From IMG/VR virus record IMGVR_UViG_3300042892_004104: DNA of 64,000 bases. One strand, written 5' to 3'. The translations under genes and the position numbers were made by a program. This document shows positions 2,483 through 16,352 of this stretch, in pieces. This DNA is from a virus. Taxonomy: Duplodnaviria > Heunggongvirae > Uroviricota > Caudoviricetes. Numbering within the stretch: the first letter of the stretch is position 1; each line of letters opens with the position of its first letter. Below the pieces are notes generated by a model, which saw only the letters and a program-made list of their open reading frames with translations, did not search any database and was not told where the DNA came from.

Positions 2483-2803
2483 CGCTTTGATAGAAAGAAG
2501 TTCTGGACCCGGCTAGCATTATGCCGGCAGGTCCACCATAAACATTTTGTAACCATCGAAAGATGAGTCAAATACCATAAGGTTAGAATAAAAACGGCTC
2601 TAACTACAAAATGTTTTTGATGGGCTTGAAAAGATTCGACAGGGCAACAAGTATTGACAAGATCTACTCGGCAATGTAGAAGCCGTTAGGGTTGGAGTAT
2701 TTCGGCCGTAGACACAAAAAAAGTAAAAGCAAACGACTCACAGTTCGCATTGGCTGCTTGAAAAAGCAATCTAGGGTAAGACATACCTCGTAACAGAAAC
2801 TCA

Positions 2804-4373: not shown

Positions 4374-4607
4374 GTGCTATAATACACACATAACAGCAGC
4401 AAACGATCGAGTAGCTGAGTAGAATTCTTTAAAAATTTACTGATATTTTTTCTTGCTACGGCAAGAAATTATATTGAAACACATTTTCAATCTGAATTGA
4501 CAGATACAAACAACCAAGGGGATCCGCTGGACTTGAGCCAGGTGCATTCTGAATTGACAGAAATAAGGTTGTAAGGAGAGCCGAGTGTGTTTCAATATAA
4601 CAAATTT

Positions 4608-5343: not shown

Positions 5344-5741
5344 AGTTTTGTTAGAGTGTTAGCAAGAGAAAGTCACGCTGTCTAGGTTTCTTCGAAGAAC
5401 CAAAGCAGTAGAAGGTGATGGGTTCGACACCCACCCTGCGGGGAACTGCAGGGGTCCATTGAGGCGACTAAACTGGACCGGTATCCCAAGTAACTTACCG
5501 ACTCCCGCTCGAGCTTGTTAATTCGGGTGAATGGCAGCAATAACGTGGTGCTGCTACTTTAACAAATTCAATATTTTATTTTTATAGTCAAGCATCAATA
5601 AAGGTATCGTGACGGGACGCTGTCACTATGCGGGCCTAACTGTGCGAGGAACAGGTCCTGATAAAACTGCTATTCGCTTGTCAGAGGAAGCACCTTTGTT
5701 GACAAATTGGCATCTCTTGATGCTTGACTATAAAAATTTTT

Positions 5742-5831
5742 GCCAGCGAGACTTGGAGTCCGAGGGGTCTTATATGCCCTTTCCGCCAGATTAGCGGCTT
5801 TGAGAGAGTTCGATTCTCTCCGCTGGTACCA
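5742..5831 (+). tRNA. class II tRNA-like (long variable arm ccgcc-agatta-gcgg); inferred anticodon TAT with low certainty
   Basis: Acceptor gccagcg/cgctggt perfect 7 bp, T-arm gagag-ttcgatt-ctctc, ACCA; D arm unclear. Confidence 0.4.
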
Positions 5832-5870
5832 GTTAAACTGACACAAACAAATTTAGTGTTAAATACTGCC

Positions 5871-6995
5871 ATGACAAACAAATACTGTGCCTTGCCATTT
5901 AACCATGTAAATGTTAATCCTCGAGGCGACTATCAAATTTGTTGTAAACATCCTGTCCCTGCTGAACATAGAAAAAATATCAAATTTATTTCTCACTTGG
6001 AGTGGCAGAACAATCAATACCTTAAGGAAGTACAAACAAGTTTTGAACAAGGACTAGAACATCCTGGTTGCAACGCATGTTGGAAACTTGAAGATGTAAA
6101 CGTATCAAGCCTTAGGCAAGTTCAGGCACAAGAATACCAAATTTTAGGGGCGAAACCTTTTCAGCAAAAATTGTTAAGCGTAGAACTTGCTGTAGGGAAT
6201 CTTTGTAACTTGTCCTGTATCATGTGTGACGAAGAATCAAGCAGTGCTATTCTGTCAGAGAATCGACGATTGAATGTTTCTACAAGTGATCAACAAGATT
6301 TCACCTGGCCCGACACTGCGTTTGATCATCTTGAACAGATATTAGCAACTGTTCCTAGAGTGGTCAATTTGCGTGGCGGTGAGCCAATGTACAATAAAAA
6401 AATATTGGACATTATAAACAAGTTCTCTGACCAACACCTGAATTTAACAATGTTACATCTTTCAACAAATGCAACACGTTGGTCTCCAGAATGGGAAGCC
6501 GCACTAAAAAAGTTTCAACTGGTGAGAATCATGCTGAGTGTTGATGCAGTTGGATCCTTGTTTGAATACATTCGCTATCCAGCTGACTTTTGCCAGGTTG
6601 AAGAAAATATCAAAAAAATAGTCAGCAACAGCAATATCAACCCAGTTATACATGCAACAGTACAGAATCTAAATATTCTAAGTATAGGCAAATTGGTGCA
6701 ATGGGCACATGACATAAACATTCATTTAATGATGGATTTATTGGTCTATCCCAAGCATTTACGAATTACCAACTTGCCAGATCATTTGAAAAAACAAGCA
6801 ATTGATCATCTAGAACAAACACTTGATCTTGAGCTTGATTTGCATATTCGAAATTCACTAACTCAATACAAGAATGTTTTAAAAAGCGCTCTTGAACGTC
6901 CAATGGACCATGGGATGTGGCAATTTTTTGTAGACTGGACTTCTCTTAGAGATCATGCACGAGCAAACTCTCACAAAGAATTTTTAAAATATTGA
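5871..6995 (+). CDS. radical SAM enzyme, displaced paralog of the 46-55 kb array (start adjusted from the track's 5724 to the ATG at 5871)
   Basis: N-terminal YCALPFNHVNVNPRGDYQICC motif plus CNLSCIMC (CxxxCxxC); upstream track extension overlaps the tRNA-like element. Confidence 0.75.
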   Translation: MTNKYCALPFNHVNVNPRGDYQICCKHPVPAEHRKNIKFISHLEWQNNQYLKEVQTSFEQGLEHPGCNACWKLEDVNVSSLRQVQAQEYQILGAKPFQQKLLSVELAVGNLCNLSCIMCDEESSSAILSENRRLNVSTSDQQDFTWPDTAFDHLEQILATVPRVVNLRGGEPMYNKKILDIINKFSDQHLNLTMLHLSTNATRWSPEWEAALKKFQLVRIMLSVDAVGSLFEYIRYPADFCQVEENIKKIVSNSNINPVIHATVQNLNILSIGKLVQWAHDINIHLMMDLLVYPKHLRITNLPDHLKKQAIDHLEQTLDLELDLHIRNSLTQYKNVLKSALERPMDHGMWQFFVDWTSLRDHARANSHKEFLKY

Positions 6996-7311
6996 TACAA
7001 ATTGTATCACCAAGTTAAGCAGATCATGTGGCGGAAAAACTCATTGACTATGGGCCCGACTGCCAGGGACCACGATTAAATCCTGAACCGCTGACGTTGA
7101 AAAACACGAGACTGCTAGTCACAGTCAACACATGTTCAGGAAGGAAGGGAGTGCAGTCTTGCATTCCGCACCTTTAAACGCAGGACAGTCACATGATCAG
7201 CTTATTCAAATTCAGTTGACAATCATTGTTGTTTGTTGTACATATAAAGGTCGGTTTGATTCCCTCCACTGCAACTAACATATGAATAAATAATTGTGAA
7301 CACCAACACTT

Positions 7312-8088
7312 ATGCTTAAAAAAATACAGGAATTTTACAAAATTTATGGCTATTACCACTGCAAAATGTGGGCGTGGCACTTGTTGATTATTTTATGCTT
7401 AATAGTATTGCCATTTGAATACTTTTTATGGTCCATATTAGTACATCTGATATTGATGCCTATAACGCAAACAATTTCTCATGATTATATCTGTCACGAA
7501 TATATTCAACCCAGAAACAAAGTAATAGAAATTATTTGCTTAATAGTGTTTTACGGATTAGCAGGAAGAAGTATTGATGGCAAAAGAGCATACCACGTAA
7601 GTCATCATAGATTTTGGAAAACACCAGACCTGGACCCTCCACAGCAAAAAATGAAGGAGAGTTCGTTTTGGCAATACGCATTAAATTTTCAAAAGCCAGT
7701 ATCTTACAATTTGCCGTATGTAAAAAGTAACTTGTTCAAAAACAATTCTTTGGTAAAGAAACTAGATAGTCACAGTGAAAAAATATTTTGGATTTTTCAC
7801 GGTTTACTTTTTATTATTTTACCCATTGAATGGTTTGCAGTAATTTCCATATATTACATAGGGTTTGGAACAATTATTGGTGGAATACACGATCAAATAT
7901 TTCATAGATACCACACCGCAACAGACCGATCATGGTATTTGCCAATATTTGGAAATCAGGCGTGGCATATAAAACACCACGAAGAATCTGACAGAATATA
8001 TTATGGACCAGGATTGATCAAATGGGTAAATCCATCGTTGTATATTCATAAAATATTTTTCAAACCCACTGATCATTGTTTAGTTTAA
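7312..8088 (+). CDS. membrane protein of the fatty acid hydroxylase/desaturase (histidine-box) superfamily
   Basis: Three His boxes, HDYICH (HX4H), SHHRFW (HX2HH) and KHHEE (HX2HH), plus hydrophobic segments. Confidence 0.6.
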   Translation: MLKKIQEFYKIYGYYHCKMWAWHLLIILCLIVLPFEYFLWSILVHLILMPITQTISHDYICHEYIQPRNKVIEIICLIVFYGLAGRSIDGKRAYHVSHHRFWKTPDLDPPQQKMKESSFWQYALNFQKPVSYNLPYVKSNLFKNNSLVKKLDSHSEKIFWIFHGLLFIILPIEWFAVISIYYIGFGTIIGGIHDQIFHRYHTATDRSWYLPIFGNQAWHIKHHEESDRIYYGPGLIKWVNPSLYIHKIFFKPTDHCLV

Positions 8089-8248
8089 ACAGCAAACTTG
8101 CAGAGAAATGCAGGTACATTTTGTGTAAGCATGTAATCTCAGTGTTCCACTATTCTAAAACACATTTTGATGCCTTTAAGGTCATAAGGTTGATCGCTTA
8201 TGATACGGTGCGTGATGAGTGTGTTTCACAATAGATAAATAAATTATC

Positions 8249-8323
8249 GCGGGAAGGGTCCGGTCACCGGCAGGGTCTCATAAGCCTTTGCAATCCTTGG
8301 TTCAAATCCAAGTCCCGCAACCA
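8249..8323 (+). tRNA. probable tRNA-Met (CAT); D arm irregular
   Basis: T-arm cttgg-ttcaaat-ccaag, loop ctcataa, AACCA end; acceptor pairing imperfect. Confidence 0.4.
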
Positions 8324-8376
8324 AACACAACATTTTTGCTGTGAGTCATAAATAACTTGCAACAAAAATTCAGTGG

Positions 8377-8405
8377 TTGACAACAATCACTAAATACCTT
8401 ATAAT
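8377..8405 (+). promoter_or_regulatory. consensus sigma70 promoter TTGACA-17-TATAAT
   Basis: Perfect hexamers, 17-nt spacer. Confidence 0.6.
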
Positions 8406-8569
8406 ACAAACATGATGAACAAAAACACTTTCGACCGCATGCATTCCGTACAGACCTTGGCACAGCCCTGGTCACGTGCCTTTGCCTGCGGCAAAAGTAT
8501 TACAGGGAATCACCGGGTCCGAGAAGGAATCAGTTGCGCCTAACAGCAGTAACTCACAAACTTCAAGGA

Positions 8570-8600
8570 CCCTGGAACTAAAAACTCCAGGGTTTTTCTT
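8570..8600 (+). terminator. rho-independent terminator
   Basis: ccctgga-(9 nt)-tccaggg followed by tttttcttt. Confidence 0.55.
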
Positions 8601-8743
8601 TATGTGCAATGAGTAACGAGGACTCAGCCAGCACACTAAACCAGGCAAACGGGCGGACAGGACACATGAACGTGTGGCGATAACACACTAGTAAGACTCC
8701 TGGTCGGGGTATCAACCCCGTCATGTCCAGTAGCAATACTGGG

Positions 8744-8802
8744 CATTCTAAAACGCACTAAGTTGATATGGACTGTGATGTCGCATCTAGTGCGTTTTAG
8801 AA
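8744..8802 (+). repeat. 15-bp perfect inverted repeat hairpin (attctaaaacgcact ... agtgcgttttagaat) immediately 5' of tRNA-Ala
   Basis: Read directly; 29-nt loop. Confidence 0.7.
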
Positions 8803-8807
8803 TGTAT

Positions 8808-8882
8808 GGGCTGTAGGTGTTGTTGGGGGCACACGGGCTTTGCAAGCCTGGAGGAACGGTTCGATCCCGTTACGGTCCACCA
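8808..8882 (+). tRNA. tRNA-Ala (TGC) with G3:U70
   Basis: Acceptor gggctgt/acggtcc with G3-U70, D stem gtgt/gcac, anticodon loop tttgcaa, T-arm aacgg-ttcgatc-ccgtt, ACCA. Confidence 0.75.
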
Positions 8883-8891
8883 TATGTTAAT

Positions 8892-8967
8892 GTATCGCTA
8901 GCTCAATTGGCAGAGTTCTGGTCTCCAAAACCAGCGGTTCGGGGTTCGAATCCCTGGCGGTACGCCA
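8892..8967 (+). tRNA. tRNA-Trp (CCA)
   Basis: Acceptor gtatcgc/gcggtac, anticodon stem ctggt/accag with loop ctccaaa, T-arm ttcgaat, GCCA. Confidence 0.8.
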
Positions 8968-8977
8968 AGTTTTTTGT

Positions 8978-9051
8978 TGGGGGTTAGTGTAGCGGTAACA
9001 CTACAGACTTTGACTCTGTCATCACTGGTTCGATCCCAGTACCCTCTGCCA
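8978..9051 (+). tRNA. tRNA-Gln (TTG), 1-72 mismatch
   Basis: Anticodon stem acaga/tctgt with loop ctttgac, T-arm actgg-ttcgatc-ccagt, GCCA. Confidence 0.65.
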
Positions 9052-9055
9052 ATAT

Positions 9056-9130
9056 TGCCGTGTAGCTCAGAGGAAGAGCAAACGCTTGATAAGCGTTAGG
9101 TCGACATTTCGAAATTGTCCATGGCAACCA
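9056..9130 (+). tRNA. tRNA-Ile (GAT), unusual T-arm
   Basis: Acceptor tgccgtg/catggca, D stem gctc/gagc, anticodon stem aacgc/gcgtt with loop ttgataa, ACCA. Confidence 0.65.
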
Positions 9131-9138
9131 CATATATG

Positions 9139-9167
9139 TTGACACTGTTGGTCAACTGCTATATAAT
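9139..9167 (+). promoter_or_regulatory. consensus sigma70 promoter TTGACA-17-TATAAT inside the tRNA cluster
   Basis: Perfect hexamers and spacing. Confidence 0.6.
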
Positions 9168-9183
9168 AGCAGTGTTAGTTTCA

Positions 9184-9271
9184 GGAATGGTCCCATAATG
9201 GTATTGGAGCGGCTTGCTAAGCCGTCGGTCGGTTAAACGGCTTCTCGGTTCGAGTCCGAGTCATTCCGCCA
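9184..9271 (+). tRNA. tRNA-Ser (GCT), class II
   Basis: Acceptor ggaatgg/tcattcc, anticodon loop ttgctaa, long variable arm, T-arm ctcgg-ttcgagt-ccgag, GCCA. Confidence 0.8.
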
Positions 9272-9279
9272 AGTTTTAT

Positions 9280-9355
9280 TCCTCAGTAGCACAGCGGTAG
9301 TTGCGCGACACTGTTAATGTCGATGTCCGTGGTTCGATCCCACGCTGAGGAGCCA
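9280..9355 (+). tRNA. tRNA-Asn (GTT)
   Basis: Acceptor tcctcag/ctgagga perfect, anticodon stem cgaca/tgtcg with loop ctgttaa, T-arm cgtgg-ttcgatc-ccacg. Confidence 0.8.
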
Positions 9356-9407
9356 AACAAATCCATACTCTCCCTTGAAAAGTTAGGTCCCTGGATTTTT
9401 CTTTTTT

Positions 9408-9481
9408 GCCCTACTAGTACAATGGCAGTACACTGGTTTTGTAATCCTGTGATGGCAGTTCGATTCTGTCGTGGGGCACCA
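9408..9481 (+). tRNA. tRNA-Thr (TGT); anticodon stem has two U-U mismatches
   Basis: Acceptor gccctac/gtggggc, D stem gtac/gtac, loop tttgtaa, T-arm ggcag-ttcgatt-ctgtc, ACCA. Confidence 0.55.
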
Positions 9482-9489
9482 CTTTTTAT

Positions 9490-9561
9490 CCCGGTTGTAG
9501 TGTAATGGCAACACAGGTCCGTATACAACCAATGAAGGTTCGATTCCTTCCTCCGGGGCCA
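9490..9561 (+). tRNA. tRNA-like element with good T-arm (gaagg-ttcgatt-ccttc) and GCCA end but no identifiable anticodon arm (possible pseudo-tRNA)
   Basis: Read directly; acceptor cccggtt/ctccggg has two mismatches. Confidence 0.3.
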
Positions 9562-9567
9562 CTCAAT

Positions 9568-9645
9568 GCGTCTTTAGCTCAGTCGGAATAGAGCACTGGT
9601 TTACGAAGCCGGGGGCCGGGAGTTCGAGTCTCTCAGGACGCACCA
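9568..9645 (+). tRNA. tRNA-Arg (ACG)
   Basis: Acceptor gcgtctt/aggacgc, D arm agctcagtcggaatagagc, loop ttacgaa, T-arm gggag-ttcgagt-ctctc, ACCA. Confidence 0.8.
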
Positions 9646-9652
9646 AACACAG

Positions 9653-9681
9653 TTGACAACATTCTGCGATTGTTGTATAAT
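9653..9681 (+). promoter_or_regulatory. consensus sigma70 promoter TTGACA-17-TATAAT
   Basis: Perfect hexamers; located between tRNA-Arg and tRNA-Lys. Confidence 0.6.
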
Positions 9682-9790
9682 CAAAACTTAAACGAAAGAC
9701 TATATGAAGCGAACAGCTAAAATGTAGTGTCGACCCAGATCCCATGTCGGTCTGGAGTTGGCACTGAAAAGACAATTCACGACTGAGTAT

Positions 9791-9866
9791 GGGATCATAG
9801 TGAAATGGTTATCACAGCAGACTTTTAATCTGCCAATTCCCGGTTCGAGTCCGGGTGGTCCTACCA
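9791..9866 (+). tRNA. tRNA-Lys (TTT)
   Basis: Acceptor gggatca/tggtcct, anticodon stem gcaga/tctgc with loop cttttaa, T-arm cccgg-ttcgagt-ccggg, ACCA. Confidence 0.8.
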
Positions 9867-9968
9867 TATAAAAACACATTATAGCAACGCATGAGCAGGT
9901 TGTTAACTTTCGCTGGCTACGTATAGAATCGTAGGTGAGTAAAGGTAGTGTGTTTCTATATGGTATAA
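9863..9968 (+). repeat. long-stem hairpin element: accatataaaaacaca ... tgtgtttctatatggt (15-bp stem, ~70-nt loop)
   Basis: Complementary arms read directly; member of a recurring family. Confidence 0.6.
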
Positions 9969-10019
9969 CTGTTCAAGTTCAATGGTCACACGCCCTTGCT
10001 TGAATTAGAAGTCGCCATA
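9951..10019 (+). repeat. ~69-bp dispersed direct repeat, copy A (gtgtgtttctatatggta...ttcaatggtcacacgcccttgcttgaattagaag.cgccata)
   Basis: Near-identical to 11202-11270. Confidence 0.7.
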
Positions 10020-10125
10020 TGAAAACATACTGTGAGGCGCTAGTTGCACGGCAAACTTACACAAAGTGCAACCTGTCATGTAATAGTGTACATAAAGATG
10101 ATAAGCAGTGTGTTTCTATATGGTA
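10016..10125 (+). repeat. hairpin element of the same family (ccatatgaaaacatactg ... cagtgtgtttctatatgg)
   Basis: Imperfect complementary arms. Confidence 0.4.
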
Positions 10126-10734
10126 GCTACAGATAAACACATTGGGATTAAATTCTGGTCACCCCAGCGCATAAGAGGTTGCGTACAGTGTGTTTTTCTA
10201 TGGTAAAAACAGAGGTTGACCTAGATCAACTTTGATGTTACAATAAAATTCAAGGGCGGTTTAACGTCCTATAGGCCAGCTTGCTGGTTTATGAAGAATA
10301 ACTGTGGTGACACAGCCAAAGGAGGTATGCCTACATAACTCCGCCAGCAACGGTTCGTTTAAGCAAGCCTGCTCAGGTCCGTGAGGATCCGATCACTGAT
10401 AAGACCGGTGGTTGTAACAATGACGCTGGATGTTGTGGAAAGAACGTCGACTTACAAGCCCGAAAGGGGAACTTGAGTAGATGGAAAGTAACAGGTGGTG
10501 CTGACTTCACAACTAAACCAGTCCAGTTAATTGGCATGAGAAAGGGTAGCGTATTTGTCCGAGGGGTTGCACCCAAGGGCTCGTATGCAGTTTGAGTGGT
10601 TAGTGGATACGTAGCAATACGCAGACATCGATCGCAAAAGACGACTGAGTAGTTCGCAAGACCAAAGGTACGTGGTGTGTTGTATTGTGTAGAGCAAAAC
10701 TTTATGCAGCAACTGAGTCAGCACATCGCAGTAG

Positions 10735-10812
10735 GTTCGTTATAGCTCAATTGGTAGAGCAACTCCCTGTTAAGGAGTAGGCAGAAGGTTCAAATCCCTC
10801 TAACTATTAAAA
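10735..10812 (+). tRNA. pseudo-tRNA-like (D arm gctc/gagc, anticodon arm actcc-ctgttaa-ggagt = GTT, T-arm ttcaaat) lacking a pairable acceptor and CCA
   Basis: Partial cloverleaf read directly. Confidence 0.3.
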
Positions 10813-11142
10813 AGCAAAGACTGACTCGGTCGTGTGTGAAAAGCATCTAATACTTGGCTCGCAAGAGAACCAAGTCTAACCAAGCTCGCAAGGTGAGGTT
10901 AGTTTATGCAGGAAGTTTCGTAACTGTTTAGCGACAGTGAATGGCTCTAAAGGTCAACGGGATAGAAAGCGTAGAATAGCATACGGCGACGTGACTACTG
11001 CCTGTCACTAAAAACGGCGATGTTGGCAACAGACCAGGATACTCTGCAAAGAGACTTGGTGGAAGTCGGAAGAAAGTATACTCGCAAGGTGTACAATAAT
11101 GTCCGAGGTGTTGTTGGAGAGGATGTATTCTCAGTCCTTTCA

Positions 11143-11215
11143 CCATATAAAAACACACTTCCGACAGTAGGCGGAGGTGACAATGTCCATTCGGGTGAGT
11201 GTGTTTCTATATGGT
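11143..11215 (+). repeat. hairpin element ccatataaaaacacac ... gtgtgtttctatatgg (16-bp stem)
   Basis: Arms read directly. Confidence 0.6.
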
Positions 11216-11270
11216 AAAACTATTTGAGTTCAATGGTCACACGCCCTTGCTTGAATTAGAAGTTGCCATA
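11202..11270 (+). repeat. ~69-bp dispersed direct repeat, copy B
   Basis: Matches 9951-10019 with a few substitutions. Confidence 0.7.
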
Positions 11271-11498
11271 GTTGAATACATTCATCATTGGTTGACCCGA
11301 CAGTCTGCTTGGTTAGCAGGGCGGACGCAACGAAGTAGCTTAACTAGCACGATGAAAAAGCCCTTTACGCCGAGAGTGTATTCAACTATGGTTAGTATCA
11401 GAGGATGGGAACGAAACAGGGTTGCTAGTCACAATCAATGTCGTGAACGGGTACTGAGAAGTCGCAAGAGCAGGCTTGACCGCCAGAGGGTAGCGACG

Positions 11499-11611
11499 CC
11501 ATATAAGAACACATTCAACGGTTAGTGGATACCTAGCAACTGGACGCAGGTGCTATCCCAAAGAGCAGGCATGCCGCCGTAAAGCTAGGAAACGAATGTG
11601 TTCTTATATGG
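11499..11611 (+). repeat. hairpin element with 18-bp perfect stem (ccatataagaacacattc ... gaatgtgttcttatatgg), ~78-nt loop
   Basis: Perfect complementarity read directly. Confidence 0.7.
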
Positions 11612-11618
11612 TCAGATC

Positions 11619-11746
11619 ATATACAAACACACTAGCATAGAGTGACGAGCCCGTTTAGCGGCGGGTGTTATGGGTTACTCGAATGTCAATACTTTGGTGA
11701 GTAGCCGGCAAGGCGGTTCGATTCCGTAGTGTGTTTCTATATGGTG
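11619..11746 (+). repeat. hairpin-family element enclosing a tRNA-like fragment (…aaggcgg-ttcgatt-ccgtag), ending in gtgtgtttctatatggtg just before tRNA-His
   Basis: Arms catatacaaacacact / agtgtgtttctatatgg. Confidence 0.4.
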
Positions 11747-11819
11747 TAGTTAGTGTCAGCGGTCAGCACTACGGATTGTGATTCCGTCAGCATGGATTCG
11801 AATTCCATACTATACCCCA
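11743..11819 (+). tRNA. tRNA-His (GTG) with encoded G-1
   Basis: G-1 pairs with discriminator C, acceptor gtgtagt/actatac, anticodon stem acgga/tccgt with loop ttgtgat, T-arm atgga-ttcgaat-tccat, CCCA. Confidence 0.8.
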
Positions 11820-11825
11820 GAATCA

Positions 11826-11900
11826 GGTTGTGTGGCGTAGACGGATGCGCACGGGCTTCATAAGCCCTGGAGGAAGGATCGATACCTTCCACAACCACCA
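11826..11900 (+). tRNA. tRNA-Met (CAT); three G-C pairs in anticodon stem, unusual T-loop atcgata
   Basis: Acceptor ggttgtg/cacaacc perfect, loop ttcataa, ACCA. Confidence 0.65.
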
Positions 11901-12079
11901 GTCAGAGTTTCTGAACAAAAGTCATTGCTGTTTCGACGTTGTTGAAAAACTTCATGGTCAATTTGAAGTTGTCAATATCAAACACAAGAATGTAAAAAGT
12001 GTGTTCTTGACTCATGGACAAGTGTATTAATAATCCAGTCTTGGTGATAGCATTGTAAATATACATGAACGTATTTAAC

Positions 12080-12153
12080 GCGGGGTTCGTATAGTGGTAA
12101 TACCTTAGCCTTCCAAGCTAAAGCGAGGAGTTCGATTCTCCTACCCCGCTCCA
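12080..12153 (+). tRNA. tRNA-Gly (TCC)
   Basis: Acceptor gcggggt/accccgc perfect, anticodon stem ttagc/gctaa with loop cttccaa, T-arm aggag-ttcgatt-ctcct, TCCA. Confidence 0.8.
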
Positions 12154-12159
12154 CATTTT

Positions 12160-12234
12160 GCATCCTTAGCTCAGTGGTAGAGCGTTTCCTTTACACGGAA
12201 AGGGTCCGCGGTTCGAAACCGTGAGGATGTACCA
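12160..12234 (+). tRNA. tRNA-Val (TAC)
   Basis: Acceptor gcatcct/aggatgt, D arm agctcagtggtagagc, anticodon stem tttcc/ggaaa with loop tttacac, T-arm ttcgaaa, ACCA. Confidence 0.8.
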
Positions 12235-12369
12235 AGTTTTGTAGCCATATCCCGGAGATAGGGTAAAGGGTGTTGCGGGAGTCACATGCGCTGCCTGTAT
12301 CATGTGAACCGATAAAGATCGAAGCGCAACTTAATCAGTTTTTGTTCGGCCTGCTACAAATTCAATTTT

Positions 12370-12443
12370 CTCAGTATGGTGAAATGGTATCACTCTTGGT
12401 TTGGGACCAAGGAGCGTAGGTTCGATTCCTGCTACCGAGACCA
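12370..12443 (+). tRNA. tRNA-Pro (TGG)
   Basis: Anticodon stem cttgg/ccaag with loop tttggga, D stem gtga/tcac, T-arm gtagg-ttcgatt-cctgc, ACCA; one A-C mismatch in acceptor. Confidence 0.7.
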
Positions 12444-12449
12444 AGTTAT

Positions 12450-12527
12450 GCACAGGTGGCGGAGCGGCCCAACGCAAGGGATTGCAAATCCCTAAAACCG
12501 TGAGTTCAAATCTCACCCTGTGTTCCA
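12450..12527 (+). tRNA. tRNA-Cys (GCA)
   Basis: Acceptor gcacagg/cctgtgt, anticodon stem aggga/tccct with loop ttgcaaa, T-arm gtgag-ttcaaat-ctcac, TCCA. Confidence 0.7.
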
Positions 12528-12533
12528 CTCAAC

Positions 12534-12625
12534 GGAAAGTAATGCAGCGGGGATGGTCCTGCGACTGGCCTTGAAAACCAGGTTCTCAGAAATGGGATGG
12601 GGTTCGACTCCTCTGCTTTCCACCA
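12534..12625 (+). tRNA. tRNA-Ser (TGA), class II
   Basis: Acceptor ggaaagt/gctttcc, loop cttgaaa, long variable arm, T-arm ttcgact, ACCA. Confidence 0.65.
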
Positions 12626-12649
12626 AATTTTATCACAAAGGAGAATGAT

Positions 12650-13252
12650 ATGCCCAGTGTATTTTTAGTCAGCGACACGCACTTTGGTCACATGGGTGTG
12701 TGCAAGTTTACTCGCAGCGATGGTGTTACAAAACTTCGTCCCTGGGACAGTGCCGAAGAAATGGATGAAGCCATGGTCAAGTCCTGGAACGAAACTGTCA
12801 AGCCCTCTGACAAAGTTTATCATTTGGGTGACGTGGTAATCAACCGCAAGAGCTTGAAGACCCTGGCTCGCTTGAACGGTGATAAAGTTTTGATCCGCGG
12901 TAACCATGACATCTTTAGAGACGACGAGTATCGAGAATACTTTCGAGAACTTCGTGCATACCATGTGATGAACGGCATGATCCTTAGTCATATTCCTGTA
13001 CACAGTGACAGCCTGGGTCGTTTTGGTGTTAACATACACGGACACACTCACGCAAACCGTGTGAAGAAAGCTCGTGGTGTTGACGCCAAGACAGGCACAG
13101 TGTTGTACAGTGATGAAATTGATCCTCGTTATCATTGTGTTTGTGTTGAGCAAACAGACTTTCGACCCATCTTGTTCGAAGACGTGATCAAGCGTATTGA
13201 AGCAGAAGGTGGGTCTGTGGGTTTTCGCAATGGCAACGGACCAACCATGTGA
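12650..13252 (+). CDS. calcineurin-like metallophosphoesterase (phage Ser/Thr protein phosphatase-like)
   Basis: Motifs DTHFGH, GDVV, RGNHD, GHTH in order. Confidence 0.8.
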   Translation: MPSVFLVSDTHFGHMGVCKFTRSDGVTKLRPWDSAEEMDEAMVKSWNETVKPSDKVYHLGDVVINRKSLKTLARLNGDKVLIRGNHDIFRDDEYREYFRELRAYHVMNGMILSHIPVHSDSLGRFGVNIHGHTHANRVKKARGVDAKTGTVLYSDEIDPRYHCVCVEQTDFRPILFEDVIKRIEAEGGSVGFRNGNGPTM

Positions 13253-13294
13253 GTTCAGGAGAGTGTGGGGTATACTTGCACTCTCCGCCATGAC

Positions 13295-13370
13295 GCCGCG
13301 GTAGCTCATCAGGTAGAGCAGCAGATTGAAAATCTGTGTGTGGCTGGTTCGAGTCCAGCTCGTGGCACCA
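13295..13370 (+). tRNA. tRNA-Phe (GAA)
   Basis: Acceptor gccgcgg/tcgtggc, D arm agctcatcaggtagagc, anticodon stem gcaga/tctgt with loop ttgaaaa, T-arm gctgg-ttcgagt-ccagc, ACCA. Confidence 0.8.
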
Positions 13371-13376
13371 AGTCAA

Positions 13377-13451
13377 GTTTCCATAGTTCAAGGGATAGAA
13401 CACATTCCTCCTAAGAATGAAATACAGGTTCGAGTCCTGTTGGAGACACCA
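13377..13451 (+). tRNA. tRNA-Arg (CCT)
   Basis: Acceptor gtttcca/tggagac, anticodon stem cattc/gaatg with loop ctcctaa, T-arm acagg-ttcgagt-cctgt, ACCA. Confidence 0.75.
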
Positions 13452-13497
13452 ACCTCTCCCTGACATACGGAGTACAATGTGATAAGTTGTATGTTTC

Positions 13498-13571
13498 AGG
13501 TCATTAGCTCAAAGGCAGAGCACTAGGTCGACATCCTAGACACAGCGGTTCGATACCGTTATGACCCACCA
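13498..13571 (+). tRNA. tRNA-Val (GAC), low certainty; loop tcgacat has C at position 33
   Basis: D arm gctc/gagc, anticodon stem ctagg/cctag, T-arm agcgg-ttcgata-ccgtt, ACCA; A1-C72 mismatch. Confidence 0.55.
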
Positions 13572-13652
13572 GCCCCAGTAGACAAATTGGCAAAGTCGTC
13601 TCTCTCAAAAGGAGAAATTTAGATGCGGGTTCGACTCCCGCCTGGGGCACCA
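13572..13652 (+). tRNA. tRNA-Leu (CAA), low certainty, 9-nt variable region; directly abuts the previous tRNA
   Basis: Acceptor gccccag/ctggggc perfect, anticodon stem tctct/ggaga with loop ctcaaaa, T-arm gcggg-ttcgact-cccgc, ACCA. Confidence 0.55.
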
Positions 13653-13702
13653 TGTTGTTTCTCTTGACACAAAATTAGTCATTATAAATACACTTAGAGT
13701 TA

Positions 13703-14245
13703 TTGCAAAATCTAATGAAAAAAAATATACTTAAATTTACGCTACGATCAACCAATGTCAACGGATGGCCAATGGTACGTGCTAAATTCAATCAGGACCT
13801 GTTCCGTGATATATGCATTCAACAAGAGCTCACAACCTTTGAAATTTCTGTGCCATTAGAAATTTTACCAAATTGCAAAGTAACCATTGAACGTTACGGA
13901 AAAACGTCAGACAACCAATCTCAAACAGATGATCAAATTGTTGAAATTATTGCTGCAACAATTGATGGATCCCTTGTGCCTGATTTTGTTTTTTCTAAAT
14001 TTTCTAAATTTGAATTTGACAGTCAAAGTCACAACGGCAGTAGATACTTTGGCCCAAATGGTACCTGGATCTTTGAATTTAACACTCCCATAATAACCTG
14101 GTTGTTGGACCAAAAAATAATGCACGAAAGTCAGTACGATCAAAGTTACATTTATCCTTGGAGCTACAAGCTGGGGCCTGACTCAGTAAACACTCTCGGA
14201 TCGCAGCTAGAATCAGTAACTCTCAAAGTAAATAATATTTTATGA
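13703..14245 (+). CDS. hypothetical protein; C-terminal motif shared with 18236-18724
   Basis: FEFNTPIITWLLDQK compared with IPFSTPIYRWLFDNQK. Confidence 0.55.
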   Translation: MQNLMKKNILKFTLRSTNVNGWPMVRAKFNQDLFRDICIQQELTTFEISVPLEILPNCKVTIERYGKTSDNQSQTDDQIVEIIAATIDGSLVPDFVFSKFSKFEFDSQSHNGSRYFGPNGTWIFEFNTPIITWLLDQKIMHESQYDQSYIYPWSYKLGPDSVNTLGSQLESVTLKVNNIL

Positions 14246-15729
14246 GCAAAAAAATAACTTGCATCAGCATTGATTTAATCAATGCCGACAAGCCTCCGGC
14301 TGCATTAGCATTTATGGCAGGAGCCTGTGAAAAGGTCAACGCAGATTATCAATGTATTAGCTTGAACTCAGTGTTTTATCATAAACTATCACAAAAAAAA
14401 TATAATGATATATATTCAAGCGTCAAAATTGGAAATATAGAAAATTTTTTACCTACTGTTGGTCCTGTTGTTCAGAAGATCATAGAACATGTAAAAAATT
14501 TCAACAGCGATTTGATCATGATAAGTGTGTTTAGCTACATGCAATATCAATTGGCAGAATTTTTCTTGCAACTTCTAAAAGAACAAATTCCCAATGTGGA
14601 AATAATTGCCGGGGGGCCAGGAATTGGGCACGAGATACACAGCATGACCAATGGCCGACGGCTACTAGAAAAAAATTTAATAGATTTTTATTGCCTAGGC
14701 GAAGGCGACGAAGTGCTGGTTAATTTTTTAAAAGGTAGTCGCTCTGAACTAGGAATAAACTCAAAAAGCAACTTTTATGAATCCTGGACCCCGCAAATCA
14801 ATGATTTAGATAAACACTATGTATTTCCTAGCTATAAAAAAATTGAGTCAGGCAACTATAAAAATTTAGAAAATAAAAATTCTACAGTGTTTAGCCTAAG
14901 CACAAGTCGAGGATGTGTAAGATCTTGCACTTTTTGTGATGTTGGTAAAACTTGGAAAAAATTTAAATTTAGAAGCGGGTCAAATGTTGTAGATGAAGTA
15001 ATAAAACATCATCAGGATATTGGTGCAGTGCATTTTACCATTGTAGATAGTTTGATCAATGGTAGTTTAAAAAGTTTTCAAGACTTTAATCTTAGAATGA
15101 TCAAAGTCAAACAACAATATCCTGGACTTAAAGATTTTAGTTATAATGGAATGTTTATTGTAAGAGATCGACACTCACACAAAGAAGATCTGTTTAAAAT
15201 TATGAAGCAGGCCGGATGCGACAGCTTGTCCATTGGGGTTGAGACGGGCAGTGATCACCTTCGAGCACAGATGAACAAAAAATTTACCAATAAAGATTTA
15301 GACTATCATTTGGAAATGTGCGACAAGTATGGTATCAGAAATAGCTTGTTTATGTTTGTTGGGTATCCAACAGAGACTGCCAAAGATTTTGAAGAGTCAG
15401 TGGCTATGTTATACAAATATCAACGGTATTTGATCAATGACACTATTATTGGTATCAACCATTCGGGCATCTTTAGTATGTTGCCTGACACCCCGTCATA
15501 CGATCACCGGCAGGAGTTGGGCATTGAAATTGTTGAAGACACCAGCAACACTGGTATTTTAAATTGGATCAATCACAATAACTTAGAATTGACTGTCAAA
15601 GAGAGAATACTAAGAGACCTAGAGTTTAGACAGCATGCACTAGATCTAAGATACCCTGTTCCGTATGCTGCTCGATACCTAGAGTATTTGAGCAAGGTAC
15701 ATCCAGAATTTGTACCTCAAAGTGATTGA
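14242..15729 (+). CDS. B12-binding-domain radical SAM enzyme (class B radical SAM)
   Basis: N-terminal cobalamin-binding-like region, SRGCVRSCTFC (CxxxCxxC), FVGYPTETAKDFEES motif. Confidence 0.75.
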   Translation: MSKKITCISIDLINADKPPAALAFMAGACEKVNADYQCISLNSVFYHKLSQKKYNDIYSSVKIGNIENFLPTVGPVVQKIIEHVKNFNSDLIMISVFSYMQYQLAEFFLQLLKEQIPNVEIIAGGPGIGHEIHSMTNGRRLLEKNLIDFYCLGEGDEVLVNFLKGSRSELGINSKSNFYESWTPQINDLDKHYVFPSYKKIESGNYKNLENKNSTVFSLSTSRGCVRSCTFCDVGKTWKKFKFRSGSNVVDEVIKHHQDIGAVHFTIVDSLINGSLKSFQDFNLRMIKVKQQYPGLKDFSYNGMFIVRDRHSHKEDLFKIMKQAGCDSLSIGVETGSDHLRAQMNKKFTNKDLDYHLEMCDKYGIRNSLFMFVGYPTETAKDFEESVAMLYKYQRYLINDTIIGINHSGIFSMLPDTPSYDHRQELGIEIVEDTSNTGILNWINHNNLELTVKERILRDLEFRQHALDLRYPVPYAARYLEYLSKVHPEFVPQSD

Positions 15730-15792
15730 TCTTGACTATTAGCAATGTAGTCATTGACTAATTGTTAGTCTAACTACAAAAGAAAGAACCAT

Positions 15793-16263: not shown

Positions 16264-16270
16264 CGATTTT

Positions 16271-16344: not shown

Positions 16345-16352
16345 AATTATGG

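What the first reader, a model, noticed from the sequence alone, without database searches (positions are those of the whole stretch)
9863..11746. Family of long-stem hairpin and dispersed repeats (GTGTGTTTCTATATGGT with its complement ACCATATA(A/G)AAACAC) filling the non-coding gap between tRNA sub-clusters
At least six copies of the 17-mer and five complementary copies pair into hairpins with 15-18-bp perfect stems and 40-80-nt loops (9863-9968, 10016-10125, 11143-11215, 11499-11611, 11619-11746). There is also a 69-bp near-identical direct repeat (9951-10019 / 11202-11270) and recurring GGTTAGTGGATAC(G/C)TAGCAA segments. Related copies (gtgtgtttcaatata 4583, gagtgtgtttcaca 8215) flank other tRNA groups. 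No ORFs cover the ~1.8 kb. Candidates are RNase III-type processing sites for the polycistronic tRNA precursor, stable small RNAs like those in the T4 tRNA region, or a miniature mobile element.
Basis: seen in the sequence. Interest (0 to 1): 0.7.

Follow-up and report, generated by a model that had tools for sequence, protein, structure and literature searches.

The report
Phage tRNA-island hairpin spacers flanking GOLLD
The "empty" 1.9 kb between tRNA genes of this uncultured giant phage holds a known giant RNA (GOLLD, with a tRNA inside it) and seven copies of an apparently undescribed long-stem RNA hairpin, which in hundreds of related phage fragments sits exactly between the finished ends of neighbouring tRNAs, tmRNA pieces and GOLLD, most likely as a cut-out spacer.

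Summary
Half of the "gap" is a GOLLD RNA (Rfam 188.6 bits against a cut-off of 150) with tRNA-Asn embedded in it.

The region holds seven hairpins, not five. Three lie before GOLLD and four after it. Each has a helix of about 19 bp, AU-rich, with consensus ACCAUAUAAAAACACAUU…AGUGUGUUUCUAUAUGGU.

The exact 17-mer marks phage tRNA arrays: 118 of 119 IMG/VR loci that carry it are tRNA arrays. The stem covaries (15 of 19 pairs) yet keeps a mismatch at position 9 (A·C in 61% of copies). G·U pairs are strongly favoured on the tRNA-sense strand.

The 5' arm starts at the ACCA end of the upstream tRNA, and 80% of tRNA-Lys(UUU) genes are followed by a hairpin. The 3' arm often ends at the next tRNA's 5' end. 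A hairpin follows GOLLD in 6 of 6 loci. In the phages' two-piece tmRNAs the hairpin is the intervening sequence that must be removed.

Best reading (confidence about 0.5): these are transcribed, excised punctuation spacers whose double-stranded stem is the handle for an RNase III-type cut. The loops are exchangeable cassettes, and about 10% are tRNA-like.

The family is absent from Rfam 15, from isolate phages and from the literature searched. Function is unproven.

The parts
9653..9681 (+). Perfect sigma-70-type promoter (TTGACA-17-TATAAT). Probable start of the transcript that carries tRNA-Lys, the hairpins and GOLLD.
   Evidence: 12 of 12 matches. No terminator-like site on the + strand between here and 11900.
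9791..9866 (+). tRNA-Lys(UUU). Its 3' ACCA forms the first four bases of hairpin H1.
   Evidence: 66.5 bits. One search shows an overlap of 3 nt.
9863..9964 (+). Hairpin H1, with canonical stem and an A.C mismatch at position 9.
   Evidence: -37.1 kcal/mol, z -4.7. R1 61.7 bits.
9965..10013 (+). 49-nt inter-hairpin spacer, copy 1 of the direct repeat.
   Evidence: D10; it recurs at 11218-11263 and after hairpins in L018 and L081.
10014..10124 (+). Hairpin H2, with a degenerate 5' arm (GCCAUAUGAAAACAUAC).
   Evidence: z -3.0.. (35 bits).
10126..10204 (+). Its 5' arm is CUACAGAUAAACACAUU.
   Evidence: z -2.9. (47.1 bits). The loop is closely matched in L115 (nhmmer E 5e-9).
10216..10244 (+). Promoter-like site (TTGACC-17-TACAAT with an upstream TG) at the start of the GOLLD 5' domain.
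   Evidence: 10 of 12 matches. This is a consensus match only.
10206..10734 (+). GOLLD 5' (less conserved) domain.
   Evidence: nhmmer homology to the equivalent region in L025, L106, L057, L039 and L002 (E 1e-91 to 1e-121).
10735..10809 (+). tRNA-Asn(GUU), embedded in the GOLLD linker.
   Evidence: 57.8 bits. The same arrangement is seen in L039, L057, L025 and L002, and L106 has tRNA-Lys there. Published as a GOLLD feature (PMC12286853, PMC6582537).
10672..11137 (+). GOLLD RNA, the part covered by Rfam RF02032 (linker plus conserved 3' domain).
   Evidence: 188.6 bits, gathering score 150, E 5e-52, model positions 1-416 of 416.
11142..11215 (+). Hairpin H4, which starts 4 nt after the GOLLD 3' end.
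   Evidence: z -4.1. (65.9 bits, the best hit in the window); the same position in 6 of 6 GOLLD loci.
11216..11265 (+). Inter-hairpin spacer, copy 2 of the direct repeat.
   Evidence: D10..
11266..11391 (+). Hairpin H5. Its stem has diverged with compensating changes (CCAUAGUUGAAUACAUUC / GAGUGUAUUCAACUAUGG). Its loop is a conserved cassette.
   Evidence: I15. (z -4.9); the loop is conserved in L110, L085, L011, L092 and L020, where it is closed by more canonical stems.
11392..11497 (+). Unassigned segment between H5 and H6.
   Evidence: conserved in L103 (E 8e-18) and L115. No Rfam match.
11498..11612 (+). Hairpin H6, with a perfect stem of 18-19 bp. Its loop contains GGTTAGTGGATACCTAGCAA.
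   Evidence: I9. (z -5.1). (40.4 bits); the loop is conserved in L108 and L039.
11616..11745 (+). Hairpin H7. Its loop carries a T-arm-like GGUUCGAUUCC directly before the 3' arm. The hairpin ends at the 5' end of tRNA-His.
   Evidence: z -3.8.; a compensatory change in an inner hairpin compared with L110 and L115.
11744..11819 (+). tRNA-His(GUG), which starts at the last bases of H7.
   Evidence: distance -1.
8147..8237 (+). Outlying family hairpin.
   Evidence: 39.1 bits; homologous to the post-GOLLD hairpin of L025.
8740..8808 (+). Outlying hairpin with a 17-bp perfect stem, ending at tRNA-Ala (8808).
   Evidence: I13. (27.7 bits).
4468..4601 (+). Outlying family hairpin that ends 7 nt before tRNA-Glu(UUC).
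   Evidence: I22.. (13.5 bits, weak); conserved in L016 and L075.
2535..2621 (+). Intervening sequence of the window's permuted tmRNA. It is a long hairpin (about 3 of 4 basal pairs and 12 clean bp, separated by unpaired bases) that starts at the ACCA of the acceptor piece and ends at the 5' G of the coding piece. It has the same architecture as the family but a more distant sequence.
   Evidence: Searches show clearer family members in the same place in L039, L007 and L113.

Best explanation
The interval is a stretch of structured-RNA genes inside a phage tRNA island. In order it reads: tRNA-Lys(UUU), three hairpins, GOLLD RNA with tRNA-Asn in its linker, four hairpins, tRNA-His.

The hairpins belong to a large family found in uncultured freshwater-type phage tRNA arrays. 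They are transcribed on the tRNA strand as part of the polycistronic precursor. They act as removable punctuation between a finished 3' end (usually ...ACCA) and the next RNase P-generated 5' end.

Inferred mechanism:
1. The AU-rich helix of about 19 bp, with its conserved position-9 mismatch, sequesters the upstream CCA and the downstream leader.
2. The helix is the recognition handle for a double-strand-specific endonuclease of the RNase III type.
3. That cut leaves short single-stranded tails on both neighbours.
4. RNase P and 3' exonucleases then trim those tails.
5. The released stem-loops may persist as stable by-product RNAs.

What is shown: the anatomy, strand, covariation, position at RNA ends, and distribution.
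What follows from established tmRNA biology: the hairpin must be removed when it lies between the two tmRNA pieces.
What is only inferred: the identity of the nuclease, the order of cuts, and any role of the loops.
For: GOLLD:
- Rfam gives 188.6 bits against a gathering score of 150.
- The 5' domain, embedded tRNA and 3' domain are conserved in five other loci.

The family is real and specific:
- The 17-mer is found in at least 119 IMG/VR loci, and 118 of them are tRNA arrays (2046 tRNAs, never on mixed strands).
- 240 hairpins were found in 116 sources.
- In 596 Gb of prokaryote genomes only 6 short freshwater-MAG contigs carry the arm pair together with tRNAs. The other 34 hits show no tRNA-array context: 33 have no partner arm, and L123 has an arm pair but no tRNAs.

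RNA-level structure:
- 92% of cells are paired and 15 of 19 pairs change on both sides. No shuffle out of 500 reaches this, and slid controls give 29-58%.
- Outside position 9 there are 312 G.U cells against 20 A.C cells on the tRNA strand. An independently ascertained set gives 23 against 1.
- In post-GOLLD hairpins four pairs flip while the A.C mismatch is kept.

Position at RNA ends:
- In 133 of 240 hairpins the 5' arm overlaps an upstream tRNA's 3' end by 3 nt.
- In 111 of 240 the 3' arm ends within -6 to +10 nt of the next tRNA.
- A hairpin starts 4 nt after GOLLD in 6 of 6 loci.
- In L039, L007 and L113 the hairpin is the intervening sequence of the permuted tmRNA. The window's own tmRNA has a more distant version in the same place.
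- That transcript is published as 'cleaved by tRNA processing enzymes', with the intervening sequence absent from mature tmRNA (PMC11915505).

Other points:
- The helix has a median of 19 paired positions (range 17-22), about two turns.
- There are promoters but no terminators around the cluster, which fits co-transcription.
Against: - There are no expression or end-mapping data.
- No RNase III or other candidate nuclease was seen among the roughly 44 window ORFs scanned against Pfam or PHROGs. The host is unknown.
- A stem of 17-22 bp is at the lower limit for RNase III.
- A pure processing signal would not need a stem sequence this strongly conserved, nor a fixed mismatch.
- Loops are not junk. 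Each type is conserved in a few other contigs. Inner helices covary, and about 10% are miniature tRNA-like cloverleaves. This suggests functions beyond being a spacer.
- The strong preference for following tRNA-Lys, tRNA-Glu and tRNA-Gln (UUN anticodons) is not predicted by a generic punctuation role.
- Only 133 of 240 copies abut an upstream tRNA.
- The stem-conservation figure (96%) is inflated, because loci were found through the exact 17-mer.
- G.T wobble is also tolerated in single-stranded DNA hairpins.
Confidence: 0.5

Rival explanations
1. The hairpins are trans-acting small RNAs in their own right. A shared 'handle' (the sequence-conserved stem with its mismatch) is bound by a dedicated phage or host protein. 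The exchangeable 'payload' loops, some of them tRNA mimics, do the work. In architecture this resembles Y RNAs (YrlA) or viral decoy RNAs. Possible roles include countering tRNA-targeting defences or partnering GOLLD. Release by tRNA-processing enzymes would be only their route of biogenesis.
For: - The stem is conserved in sequence, not only in pairing, and the position-9 mismatch is kept.
- Loop types are conserved across contigs and have covarying inner helices.
- 23 of 240 loops carry a sense-strand T-loop motif, against 0 antisense.
- There are several different paralogues per genome.
- The hairpins are enriched after tRNA-Lys, tRNA-Glu and tRNA-Gln (UUN) (binomial 8e-11).
- The arrays also encode a phosphoesterase and a P-loop polynucleotide-kinase-like protein.
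Against: - No partner protein was identified.
- There is no TROVE/Ro60 domain among the scanned window ORFs, and no Rfam Y RNA match at E<=1.
- Loops at the same genomic position are unrelated between phages.
- As a tmRNA intervening sequence the hairpin is by definition discarded material.
Confidence: 0.22
2. The hairpins are passive structural insulators. As self-contained stable stem-loops they keep neighbouring tRNAs, tmRNA pieces and GOLLD from misfolding with each other in a long precursor. Normal RNase P and RNase E/Z cuts at their ends remove them. On this view stem similarity reflects duplication and gene conversion, not recognition.
For: - They abut structured RNAs on both sides.
- Other, unrelated long stems occupy comparable gaps in the same arrays, for example 5578-5737.
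- Tandem copies and cassette shuffling between contigs fit recombination between repeated arms.
Against: - Insulation needs no particular sequence and no conserved mismatch.
- The hairpin pairs with the upstream CCA and the downstream leader, which should hinder rather than help RNase P and exonucleases.
- Because the arms are mutually complementary, tandem copies can mispair in nested registers. That is the opposite of insulation.
Confidence: 0.13
3. The element works at the DNA level. It would be either a miniature inverted-repeat transposable element, or an attC-like single-strand recombination site that shuffles tRNA and ncRNA cassettes.
For: - It has terminal inverted repeats.
- It occurs in many copies.
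- The same loop cassette appears at different positions in different contigs. For example, window 8147-8237 matches the post-GOLLD hairpin of L025, and the hairpin order in L115 differs from the window.
- G.T wobble is tolerated in single-stranded DNA.
Against: - Internal sequences are heterogeneous, at the level of shuffled sequence.
- No transposase or integrase was seen among the scanned ORFs.
- The flanks are complementary rather than directly duplicated.
- The stem does not match the attC core sites RYYYAAC/GTTRRRY (own knowledge of the consensus, compared).
- The element is always on the tRNA strand and in register with RNA ends, including inside a tmRNA gene, where only an RNA-level excised insert is tolerable.
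Confidence: 0.08
4. The hairpins are transcription terminators or attenuators that divide the array into units.
For: They are stable hairpins in an intergenic position. Several promoter-like sites lie within the array.
Against: - Stems are AU-rich (29% GC).
- No U-tract follows. Typically the 3' arm runs straight into the next tRNA.
- The terminator scan finds none in 9860-11750 on the + strand.
- A terminator inside a tmRNA gene would abolish the coding piece.
Confidence: 0.02

Closest known systems
GOLLD RNA (Rfam RF02032)
   Same: The central roughly 930 nt is a bona fide member. It matches the full Rfam model above the gathering score, has a tRNA in the linker, and lies in a phage tRNA island (PMC12286853, PMC6582537).
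   Different: Here, and in five related loci, its 3' end is followed 4 nt later by the family hairpin. The GOLLD of the isolate Sinorhizobium phage Phosso lacks this. The hairpins are not part of the GOLLD model.
RNase III processing stems (rRNA operon stems, T7 early-mRNA sites, the RNase III site in the T4 tRNA precursor). Own knowledge, not tested here.
   Same: A long double-stranded stem that brackets or separates mature RNAs in a polycistronic transcript. Internal mismatches are tolerated. The loops are variable.
   Different: These stems are a single dispersed sequence family with a fixed mismatch. They lie between the mature RNAs rather than around them. Cleavage has not been shown.
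Intervening sequence (IVS) of permuted two-piece tmRNA genes
   Same: In L039, L007 and L113, and more distantly in the window, the hairpin occupies exactly the IVS slot between the acceptor-piece CCA and the coding-piece 5' end. The IVS is absent from mature tmRNA (PMC11915505).
   Different: The Rfam consensus IVS is a short AU-rich loop. Here it is a structured hairpin of 65-110 nt that is also used between ordinary tRNAs and after GOLLD.
Excised intervening sequences of 23S rRNA (Salmonella and Leptospira type). Own knowledge.
   Same: Stem-loop inserts with conserved stems and variable loops, removed by RNase III without religation.
   Different: Those interrupt a single RNA. These separate independent RNAs, except in the tmRNA case.
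T4 tRNA-region stable RNAs (species 1 and 2, rnaC/rnaD). Own knowledge.
   Same: Small structured RNAs encoded among phage tRNA genes and released by tRNA-processing enzymes. Their function is still unknown.
   Different: No sequence relation could be tested. T4 has two single genes, not a multi-copy family with a shared stem.
Bacterial Y RNAs (YrlA)
   Same: A long closing stem with a conserved irregularity plus a variable module that can mimic tRNA. Several paralogues per genome.
   Different: There is no Rfam Y RNA hit at E<=1. No Ro60/TROVE gene is seen in the window. Here the long stem continues the acceptor-like helix. Only about 10% of loops are tRNA-like.

Membership tests
GOLLD RNA (RF02032) | Covariance-model score at or above the curated gathering score, over the whole model. 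| tested here: met
   188.6 bits against 150, E 5e-52, model positions 1-416 of 416, window 10672-11137.
GOLLD RNA (RF02032) | A less conserved 5' domain upstream of the conserved 3' domain. | tested here: inconclusive
   Positions 10206-10734 are homologous to the equivalent region of five related GOLLD loci. There is no public model of the 5' domain to compare with.
GOLLD RNA (RF02032) | Phage or tRNA-island context, with a tRNA sometimes in the linker. | tested here: met
   tRNA-Asn at 10735-10809 lies inside the hit, and the window holds 29 tRNAs. PMC12286853 and PMC6582537 describe this feature.
GOLLD RNA (RF02032) | Assembly into a 14-mer nanocage. | not testable with these tools
   Needs cryo-EM or biophysics (PMC12286853).
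RNase III processing site | Double-stranded RNA helix of roughly two turns (about 20 bp or more). | tested here: inconclusive
   median 19 paired positions, 5-95% range 17-22, with one internal mismatch. This is borderline.
RNase III processing site | Located at boundaries of mature RNAs within one transcript. | tested here: met
   133 of 240 hairpins overlap an upstream tRNA 3' end, and 111 of 240 end at the next tRNA; after GOLLD in 6 of 6 loci; tmRNA intervening sequence; promoters present, no terminators.
RNase III processing site | Cleavage by RNase III. | not testable with these tools
   No expression or biochemical data. No RNase III domain among the scanned window ORFs.
Permuted-tmRNA intervening sequence | Lies between the CCA of the acceptor piece and the 5' end of the coding piece. 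| tested here: met
   (Rfam alignments); 6 of 7 ARAGORN permuted tmRNAs; model R1 hits inside the tmRNAs of L039, L113 and L007. This applies to the tmRNA copies (window 2535-2621), not to H1-H7.
MITE / DNA transposon | Copies share a homogeneous internal sequence. | tested here: not met
   loop identity is 49.5% against 48.8% for shuffled loops; loops of positional orthologues cannot be aligned.
MITE / DNA transposon | Target-site duplication flanking the terminal repeats. | tested here: inconclusive
   In alignment A1 the flanking columns 1-2 and 92-93 are complementary (CU...A), not direct repeats. No formal search for empty sites was done.
MITE / DNA transposon | Pairing constraint symmetric between strands (DNA level). 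| tested here: not met
   312 G.U against 20 A.C cells on the tRNA strand, outside position 9; 23 against 1 in an independent set. Single-stranded DNA hairpins are not excluded by this test.
Bacterial Y RNA (YrlA) | Match to the curated Y RNA covariance models. | tested here: not met
   nothing at E<=1 on any hairpin.
Bacterial Y RNA (YrlA) | Ro60/Rsr (TROVE) gene nearby. | tested here: not met
   no TROVE domain in about 40 ORFs scanned against Pfam. Only 64 kb of a probably much larger genome is visible.
Bacterial Y RNA (YrlA) | Long terminal stem plus a tRNA-like module. | tested here: inconclusive
   True for 23 of 240 hairpins, including H7. The T-stem covaries. Not true for the majority.
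Intrinsic terminator | G+C-rich stem followed by a U tract. | tested here: not met
   none found in 9860-11750 on the + strand; stem GC is 29%.
Integron attC site | R''/R' core sites (RYYYAAC / GTTRRRY) and an integrase nearby. | tested here: not met
   The consensus (…AUAAAAACAC / GUGUUUCUAU…) does not fit the core sites as I recall them. No integrase was found among the scanned ORFs.

The most novel reading that the evidence does not exclude
The hairpins are a previously undescribed superfamily of phage small RNAs built as 'handle plus payload'. The handle is an 18-19-bp sequence-conserved stem with an obligatory A.C mismatch, read by a dedicated factor. The payloads are dozens of exchangeable loops, some of them miniature tRNA mimics. 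They are attached preferentially to the three UUN-anticodon tRNAs (Lys, Glu, Gln) that anticodon nucleases attack, and they are encoded beside an RNA end-healing kit and GOLLD. On this reading they form part of an RNA-based counter-defence or tRNA-protection system, or are clients or cargo of the GOLLD nanocage, rather than mere processing spacers.
Probability: 0.15. Interest if true: 0.85.

Novelty: new variant of a known kind. Interest (0 to 1): 0.6.

Why it matters
Phage tRNA islands are usually annotated as tRNAs plus "non-coding gaps". Here the gaps turn out to be organised. They hold a conserved, covarying RNA hairpin family that marks the boundaries of tRNAs, two-piece tmRNA and GOLLD. 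The phage lineage is very abundant: the phosphoesterase gene embedded in these arrays has close relatives on at least 600 IMG/VR contigs.

If the stem is a processing handle, it defines how these phages mature long precursors of 30-plus RNAs. It would also define how the 3' end of GOLLD is made, which bears on an RNA whose function has been open since 2009.

The family offers simple, testable hooks: the fixed A.C mismatch, the preference for tRNA-Lys, tRNA-Glu and tRNA-Gln (UUN), and the tRNA-like loops. It would also be a useful annotation marker and a candidate for a new Rfam family.

Tried and rejected
- **Known RNA family for the hairpins.** An Rfam scan at E<=1 over 1-20000 found only GOLLD, tRNAs and tmRNA. 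A gathering-score scan of 11 hairpin-rich loci found the same.
- **Close isolate relatives.** blastn of the region and of single hairpins against 50,697 phage records gave only tRNA or GOLLD pieces and chance loop hits. Pelagibacter phage Mosig matched only the tRNA. Phosso has GOLLD but no flanking hairpin.
- **Presence in bacterial genomes.** The count is at roughly chance level (my estimate from database size and 17-mer complexity), apart from six mis-binned phage-like contigs.
- **Giant closing stem around GOLLD.** B3 (10187-10208) pairs 91% with the 5' arm of H4 (I5). But B3 has its own local partner (H3). A promoter-like site lies between B3 and GOLLD. Other loci have a tRNA directly upstream of GOLLD instead. 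This was kept only as an alternative register. Folding of the long transcripts does show that tandem units can nest.
- **GGTTAGTGGATAC repeat as a conserved link between GOLLD and a hairpin.** It is specific to this window.
- **Partner protein in the window.** No RNase III, Ro60/TROVE, RtcB or integrase was found. The array-embedded PF04308 'RNase H-like' protein, present in 27 hairpin loci, has no solved relative and no NCBIfam name, so it remains only a lead.
- **Unbiased ascertainment.** The radical SAM protein found nothing. The phosphoesterase gave 79 loci but only 4 tRNA-Lys(UUU) genes, so that sample is small.
- **Real ORFs in the gap.** No PHROG hits.
- **Literature.** No description of the hairpin family was found.


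Full report
**1. What is in the interval**

ARAGORN finds 29 tRNA genes in the first 16.6 kb of the window, all on the + strand. The finding's interval (9863-11746) lies between tRNA-Lys(UUU) at 9791-9866 and tRNA-His at 11744-11819. It is not one gap, because tRNA-Asn(GUU) sits at 10735-10809.

An Rfam scan places a full-length GOLLD RNA match at 10672-11137 (RF02032). The score is 188.6 bits against a gathering score of 150, with E 5e-52 and model positions 1-416 of 416. The tRNA-Asn lies inside this match. The 530 nt upstream (10206-10734) are homologous to the equivalent region in five other GOLLD-bearing loci, whose GOLLDs also pass the Rfam gathering score. That fits the published GOLLD architecture: a conserved 3' domain, a less conserved 5' domain, a variable linker that sometimes holds a tRNA, and a location in phage tRNA islands (PMC12286853, PMC6582537, PMC5737381).

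**2. The repeats**

The 17-mer GTGTGTTTCTATATGGT has 8 matches with up to 2 mismatches, against none in 100 shuffles. All lie within 9863-11745.

Folding and inverted-repeat searches give seven local hairpins:
- H1: 9863-9964
- H2: 10014-10124
- H3: 10126-10204
- H4: 11142-11215
- H5: 11266-11391
- H6: 11498-11612
- H7: 11616-11745

Z-scores run from -2.9 to -5.1. H5 has a diverged stem with compensating changes.

The 73-nt direct repeat (D10) and the duplicated 20-mer are confirmed. The 20-mer is specific to this window.

A covariance model (R1) was built from 77 short family members and run over all 64 kb with filters off. It finds members only between 4477 and 11739, that is, only in the tRNA/ncRNA island. 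The extra copies are at 8147-8237, 8740-8808 (abutting tRNA-Ala) and 4477-4593 (before tRNA-Glu).

**3. Distribution**

No isolate phage is closely related. Structural proteins are 39-44% identical to those of the jumbo phages Phosso, Atu_ph07 and PA5oct, and blastn finds only tRNA or GOLLD fragments.

Of these, 118 are tRNA arrays, with 2046 tRNAs that are never on mixed strands within a locus. In 103 of the 119 the motif recurs, usually as the complementary arm 50-115 nt upstream.

The same scan over 596 Gb of prokaryote genomes gave 40 hits, which by my estimate is about the number expected by chance. Only six short contigs from freshwater MAG bins carry tRNA arrays plus the partner arm. 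The other 34 show no tRNA-array context, and 33 of them have no partner arm. This serves as a natural negative control.

The lineage is abundant. The array-embedded phosphoesterase (12650-13252) has close relatives (87-92% aa among the 80 kept) on at least 600 IMG/VR contigs.

**4. Anatomy of the family**

In tRNA-strand orientation I found 240 hairpins in 116 sources, 1 to 8 per locus.

- The helix has a median of 19 paired positions (5-95% range 17-22).
- The stem is AU-rich (29% GC), while loops are 48% GC and 36-109 nt long.
- On alignment A1, 92% of cells pair and 15 of 19 pairs show changes on both sides. No shuffle out of 500 reaches the observed values, and slid controls give 29-58% pairing.
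- Position 9 of the stem is non-Watson-Crick in 72% of copies (A.C 146, U.U 10, C.C 10, C.A 7, out of 240).
- Position 17 is U.G in 168 copies, C-G in 55 and U-A in 16.
- In the hairpins that follow GOLLD, one clade has flipped four pairs (CCAUAUAAA to CUAUUCUAA, with matching changes on the other arm) while keeping the A.C mismatch.
- Outside position 9 there are 312 G.U cells but only 20 A.C cells on the tRNA strand. An independently ascertained set gives 23 against 1.

The pairing is therefore selected on the tRNA-sense strand, as expected for an RNA. A single-stranded DNA hairpin of that strand is not formally excluded.

**5. Position**

This is the most informative feature.

- In 133 of 240 hairpins the 5' arm begins at the discriminator-CCA of an upstream tRNA (median overlap 3 nt).
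- In 111 of 240 the 3' arm ends within -6 to +10 nt of the next tRNA's first base.
- In all six loci with a complete GOLLD, including the window, a family hairpin starts 4 nt after the Rfam-defined 3' end. The GOLLD of the isolate phage Phosso has no such hairpin.
- In L039 the Rfam alignment of the permuted (two-piece) tmRNA reads: acceptor 3' strand, then ACCA, then the family hairpin, then the acceptor 5' strand.
- ARAGORN-called permuted tmRNAs in six of seven loci have a long hairpin in that slot, starting at ACCA.
- Model R1 recognises the ones in L039, L113 and L007.
- The window's own tmRNA (2473-2761) has a more distant version at 2535-2621.

[quoted passage not shown] In that context the hairpin must therefore be excised. 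The identical geometry between tRNAs argues for the same fate there.

Three perfect sigma-70 consensus promoters lie in the island, at 8377, 9139 and 9653, and a good one lies at 10216 just before GOLLD. There are no terminator-like sites in the hairpin cluster. This fits co-transcription of tRNA-Lys, H1-H3, GOLLD, H4-H7, tRNA-His and tRNA-Met.

**6. The loops are not random filler**

Across 69 distinct hairpins that follow tRNA-Lys, loop identity equals that of shuffled loops (49.5% against 48.8%). The adjacent tRNA-Lys genes are 75% identical and the stems 96% identical. The stem figure is inflated because the loci were found through the exact 17-mer.

Even so, each loop type in the window recurs in one to five other contigs, often at a different position. 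For example, window 8147-8237 corresponds to the post-GOLLD hairpin of L025, and L115 carries H4, H3 and H7-type units in a different order. Inner helices show compensatory changes.

Twenty-three of 240 loops, including H7, contain a T-loop motif (GGTTCRAHTCC) in the sense orientation, and none in the antisense. One six-member loop family folds as a miniature cloverleaf on top of the long stem, with a covarying T-stem. The loops therefore behave as exchangeable, structured cassettes.

**7. Unexplained bias**

74 of 93 tRNA-Lys(UUU) genes are followed by a hairpin. Among the 48 tRNA-abutting hairpins that do not carry the exact 17-mer, 25 follow tRNA-Lys(UUU), tRNA-Glu(UUC) or tRNA-Gln(UUG). 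These three make up 12.9% of all tRNAs (binomial 8e-11). Nearly all tRNAs in these arrays end in NCCA, so the ACCA start of the stem does not explain the bias.

From my own knowledge, these three tRNAs share the xm5s2U34 modification and are the classical targets of anticodon nucleases. The arrays also carry a calcineurin-type phosphoesterase, a P-loop polynucleotide-kinase-like protein and a PF04308 RNase H-like protein. I could not connect these facts mechanistically.

**8. Interpretation**

The best-supported reading is that these are transcribed punctuation spacers that are excised. The roughly two-turn stem, which pairs the upstream CCA with the downstream leader, would be the substrate for an RNase III-type cut. 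That cut would free both neighbours for RNase P and exonuclease trimming. The excised stem-loops may accumulate, as the T4 tRNA-region stable RNAs do.

I put this at about 0.5, for four reasons. No nuclease was identified. The stem is at the lower length limit for RNase III. The sequence conservation, fixed mismatch, structured loops and Lys/Glu/Gln bias all suggest something more specific.

The rivals are:
- handle-plus-payload small RNAs with a dedicated binding protein (0.22);
- passive folding insulators (0.13);
- DNA-level mobile or recombination elements (0.08);
- terminators (0.02).

**9. Novelty**

GOLLD here is a new member of a known family. The hairpin family is absent from Rfam 15 at E<=1 and from the isolate phages searched, and I found no description in the literature. 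In kind it resembles known excised stem-loops (RNase III processing stems, rRNA and tmRNA intervening sequences), so I rate it a new variant of a known kind. There is a modest chance that it is something more distinctive.

Noticed in passing
window 2473-2761 (tmRNA); 1685-2482 (ORF): A permuted two-piece tmRNA gene (RF04321 84.9 bits; alpha_tmRNA 66 bits) lies directly downstream of a GIY-YIG SegE-like homing-endonuclease ORF. Its intervening sequence (2535-2621) is a long hairpin that starts at the ACCA end.
   Followed up: partly
window 5578-5598 / 5717-5737: A second, unrelated long-stem element: a 21-bp perfect inverted repeat enclosing 118 nt and ending 5 nt before tRNA-Ile(UAU) at 5742. 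It is conserved in 11 other tRNA-array loci. This suggests that long-stem spacers are a general habit of these arrays.
   Followed up: partly
window 4757-4792, 5172-5207, 5314-5349, 7253-7284, 8298-8325, 12596-12631, 9491-9558: T-arm-like GGTTCGAnTCC segments lie outside any ARAGORN tRNA call (D1/D5/D7). Rfam gives a weak tRNA-Sec-like hit at 12534-12621 (34.7 bits, cut-off 47) and a borderline tRNA hit at 9491-9558 (29.5 bits, cut-off 29). These may be unannotated or aberrant tRNA-like genes.
   Followed up: no
window 8377-8405, 9139-9167, 9653-9681, 10216-10244: Three perfect TTGACA-17-TATAAT promoters and one good one lie inside the tRNA island. They imply several transcription units and a host with a canonical sigma-70.
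   Followed up: no
window 12650-13252, 15793-16263, 19704-20240: Three small proteins are embedded in or next to the tRNA array: a calcineurin-type phosphoesterase, a PF04308 RNase H-like protein, and an AAA_33 polynucleotide-kinase-like protein. They recur in 28, 27 and 12 of the hairpin-bearing loci respectively. They may form an RNA end-healing or processing kit.
   Followed up: partly
window 43520-54826 (- strand), 36000-38034: A battery of at least six radical SAM / SPASM proteins plus a Nol-like carbamoyltransferase lies next to sugar epimerase and aminotransferase genes. This may be a large modification or RiPP-like gene cluster in a phage.
   Followed up: no
window 26365-27450 and 28443-29798; 34736-35422: A MoxR-type AAA ATPase and a DUF2201 metallopeptidase/VWA protein form a possible MoxR-VWA pair. 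A ThyX thymidylate synthase is also present.
   Followed up: no
L106 (oriented 2113-2184) versus window 10735-10809: The tRNA embedded in the GOLLD linker is tRNA-Asn in the window, L039, L057, L025 and L002, but tRNA-Lys(UUU) in L106. The linker tRNA is therefore exchangeable.
   Followed up: no
window 9786-10255 and 11125-11825: All arms are mutually complementary, so the minimum-energy folds of the long transcripts nest neighbouring units (A1 with B2, B1 with A2) instead of forming local hairpins. Which register forms would depend on co-transcriptional folding.
   Followed up: partly
L161 (Sinorhizobium phage Phosso, 33004-34049 of PV764938.1): An unannotated GOLLD RNA (186.6 bits) with an embedded tRNA lies in an intergenic gap of a cultured 469-kb phage, with an RNA ligase gene about 11 kb downstream. 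This phage could serve as an experimental system for GOLLD, though it lacks the hairpins.
   Followed up: partly
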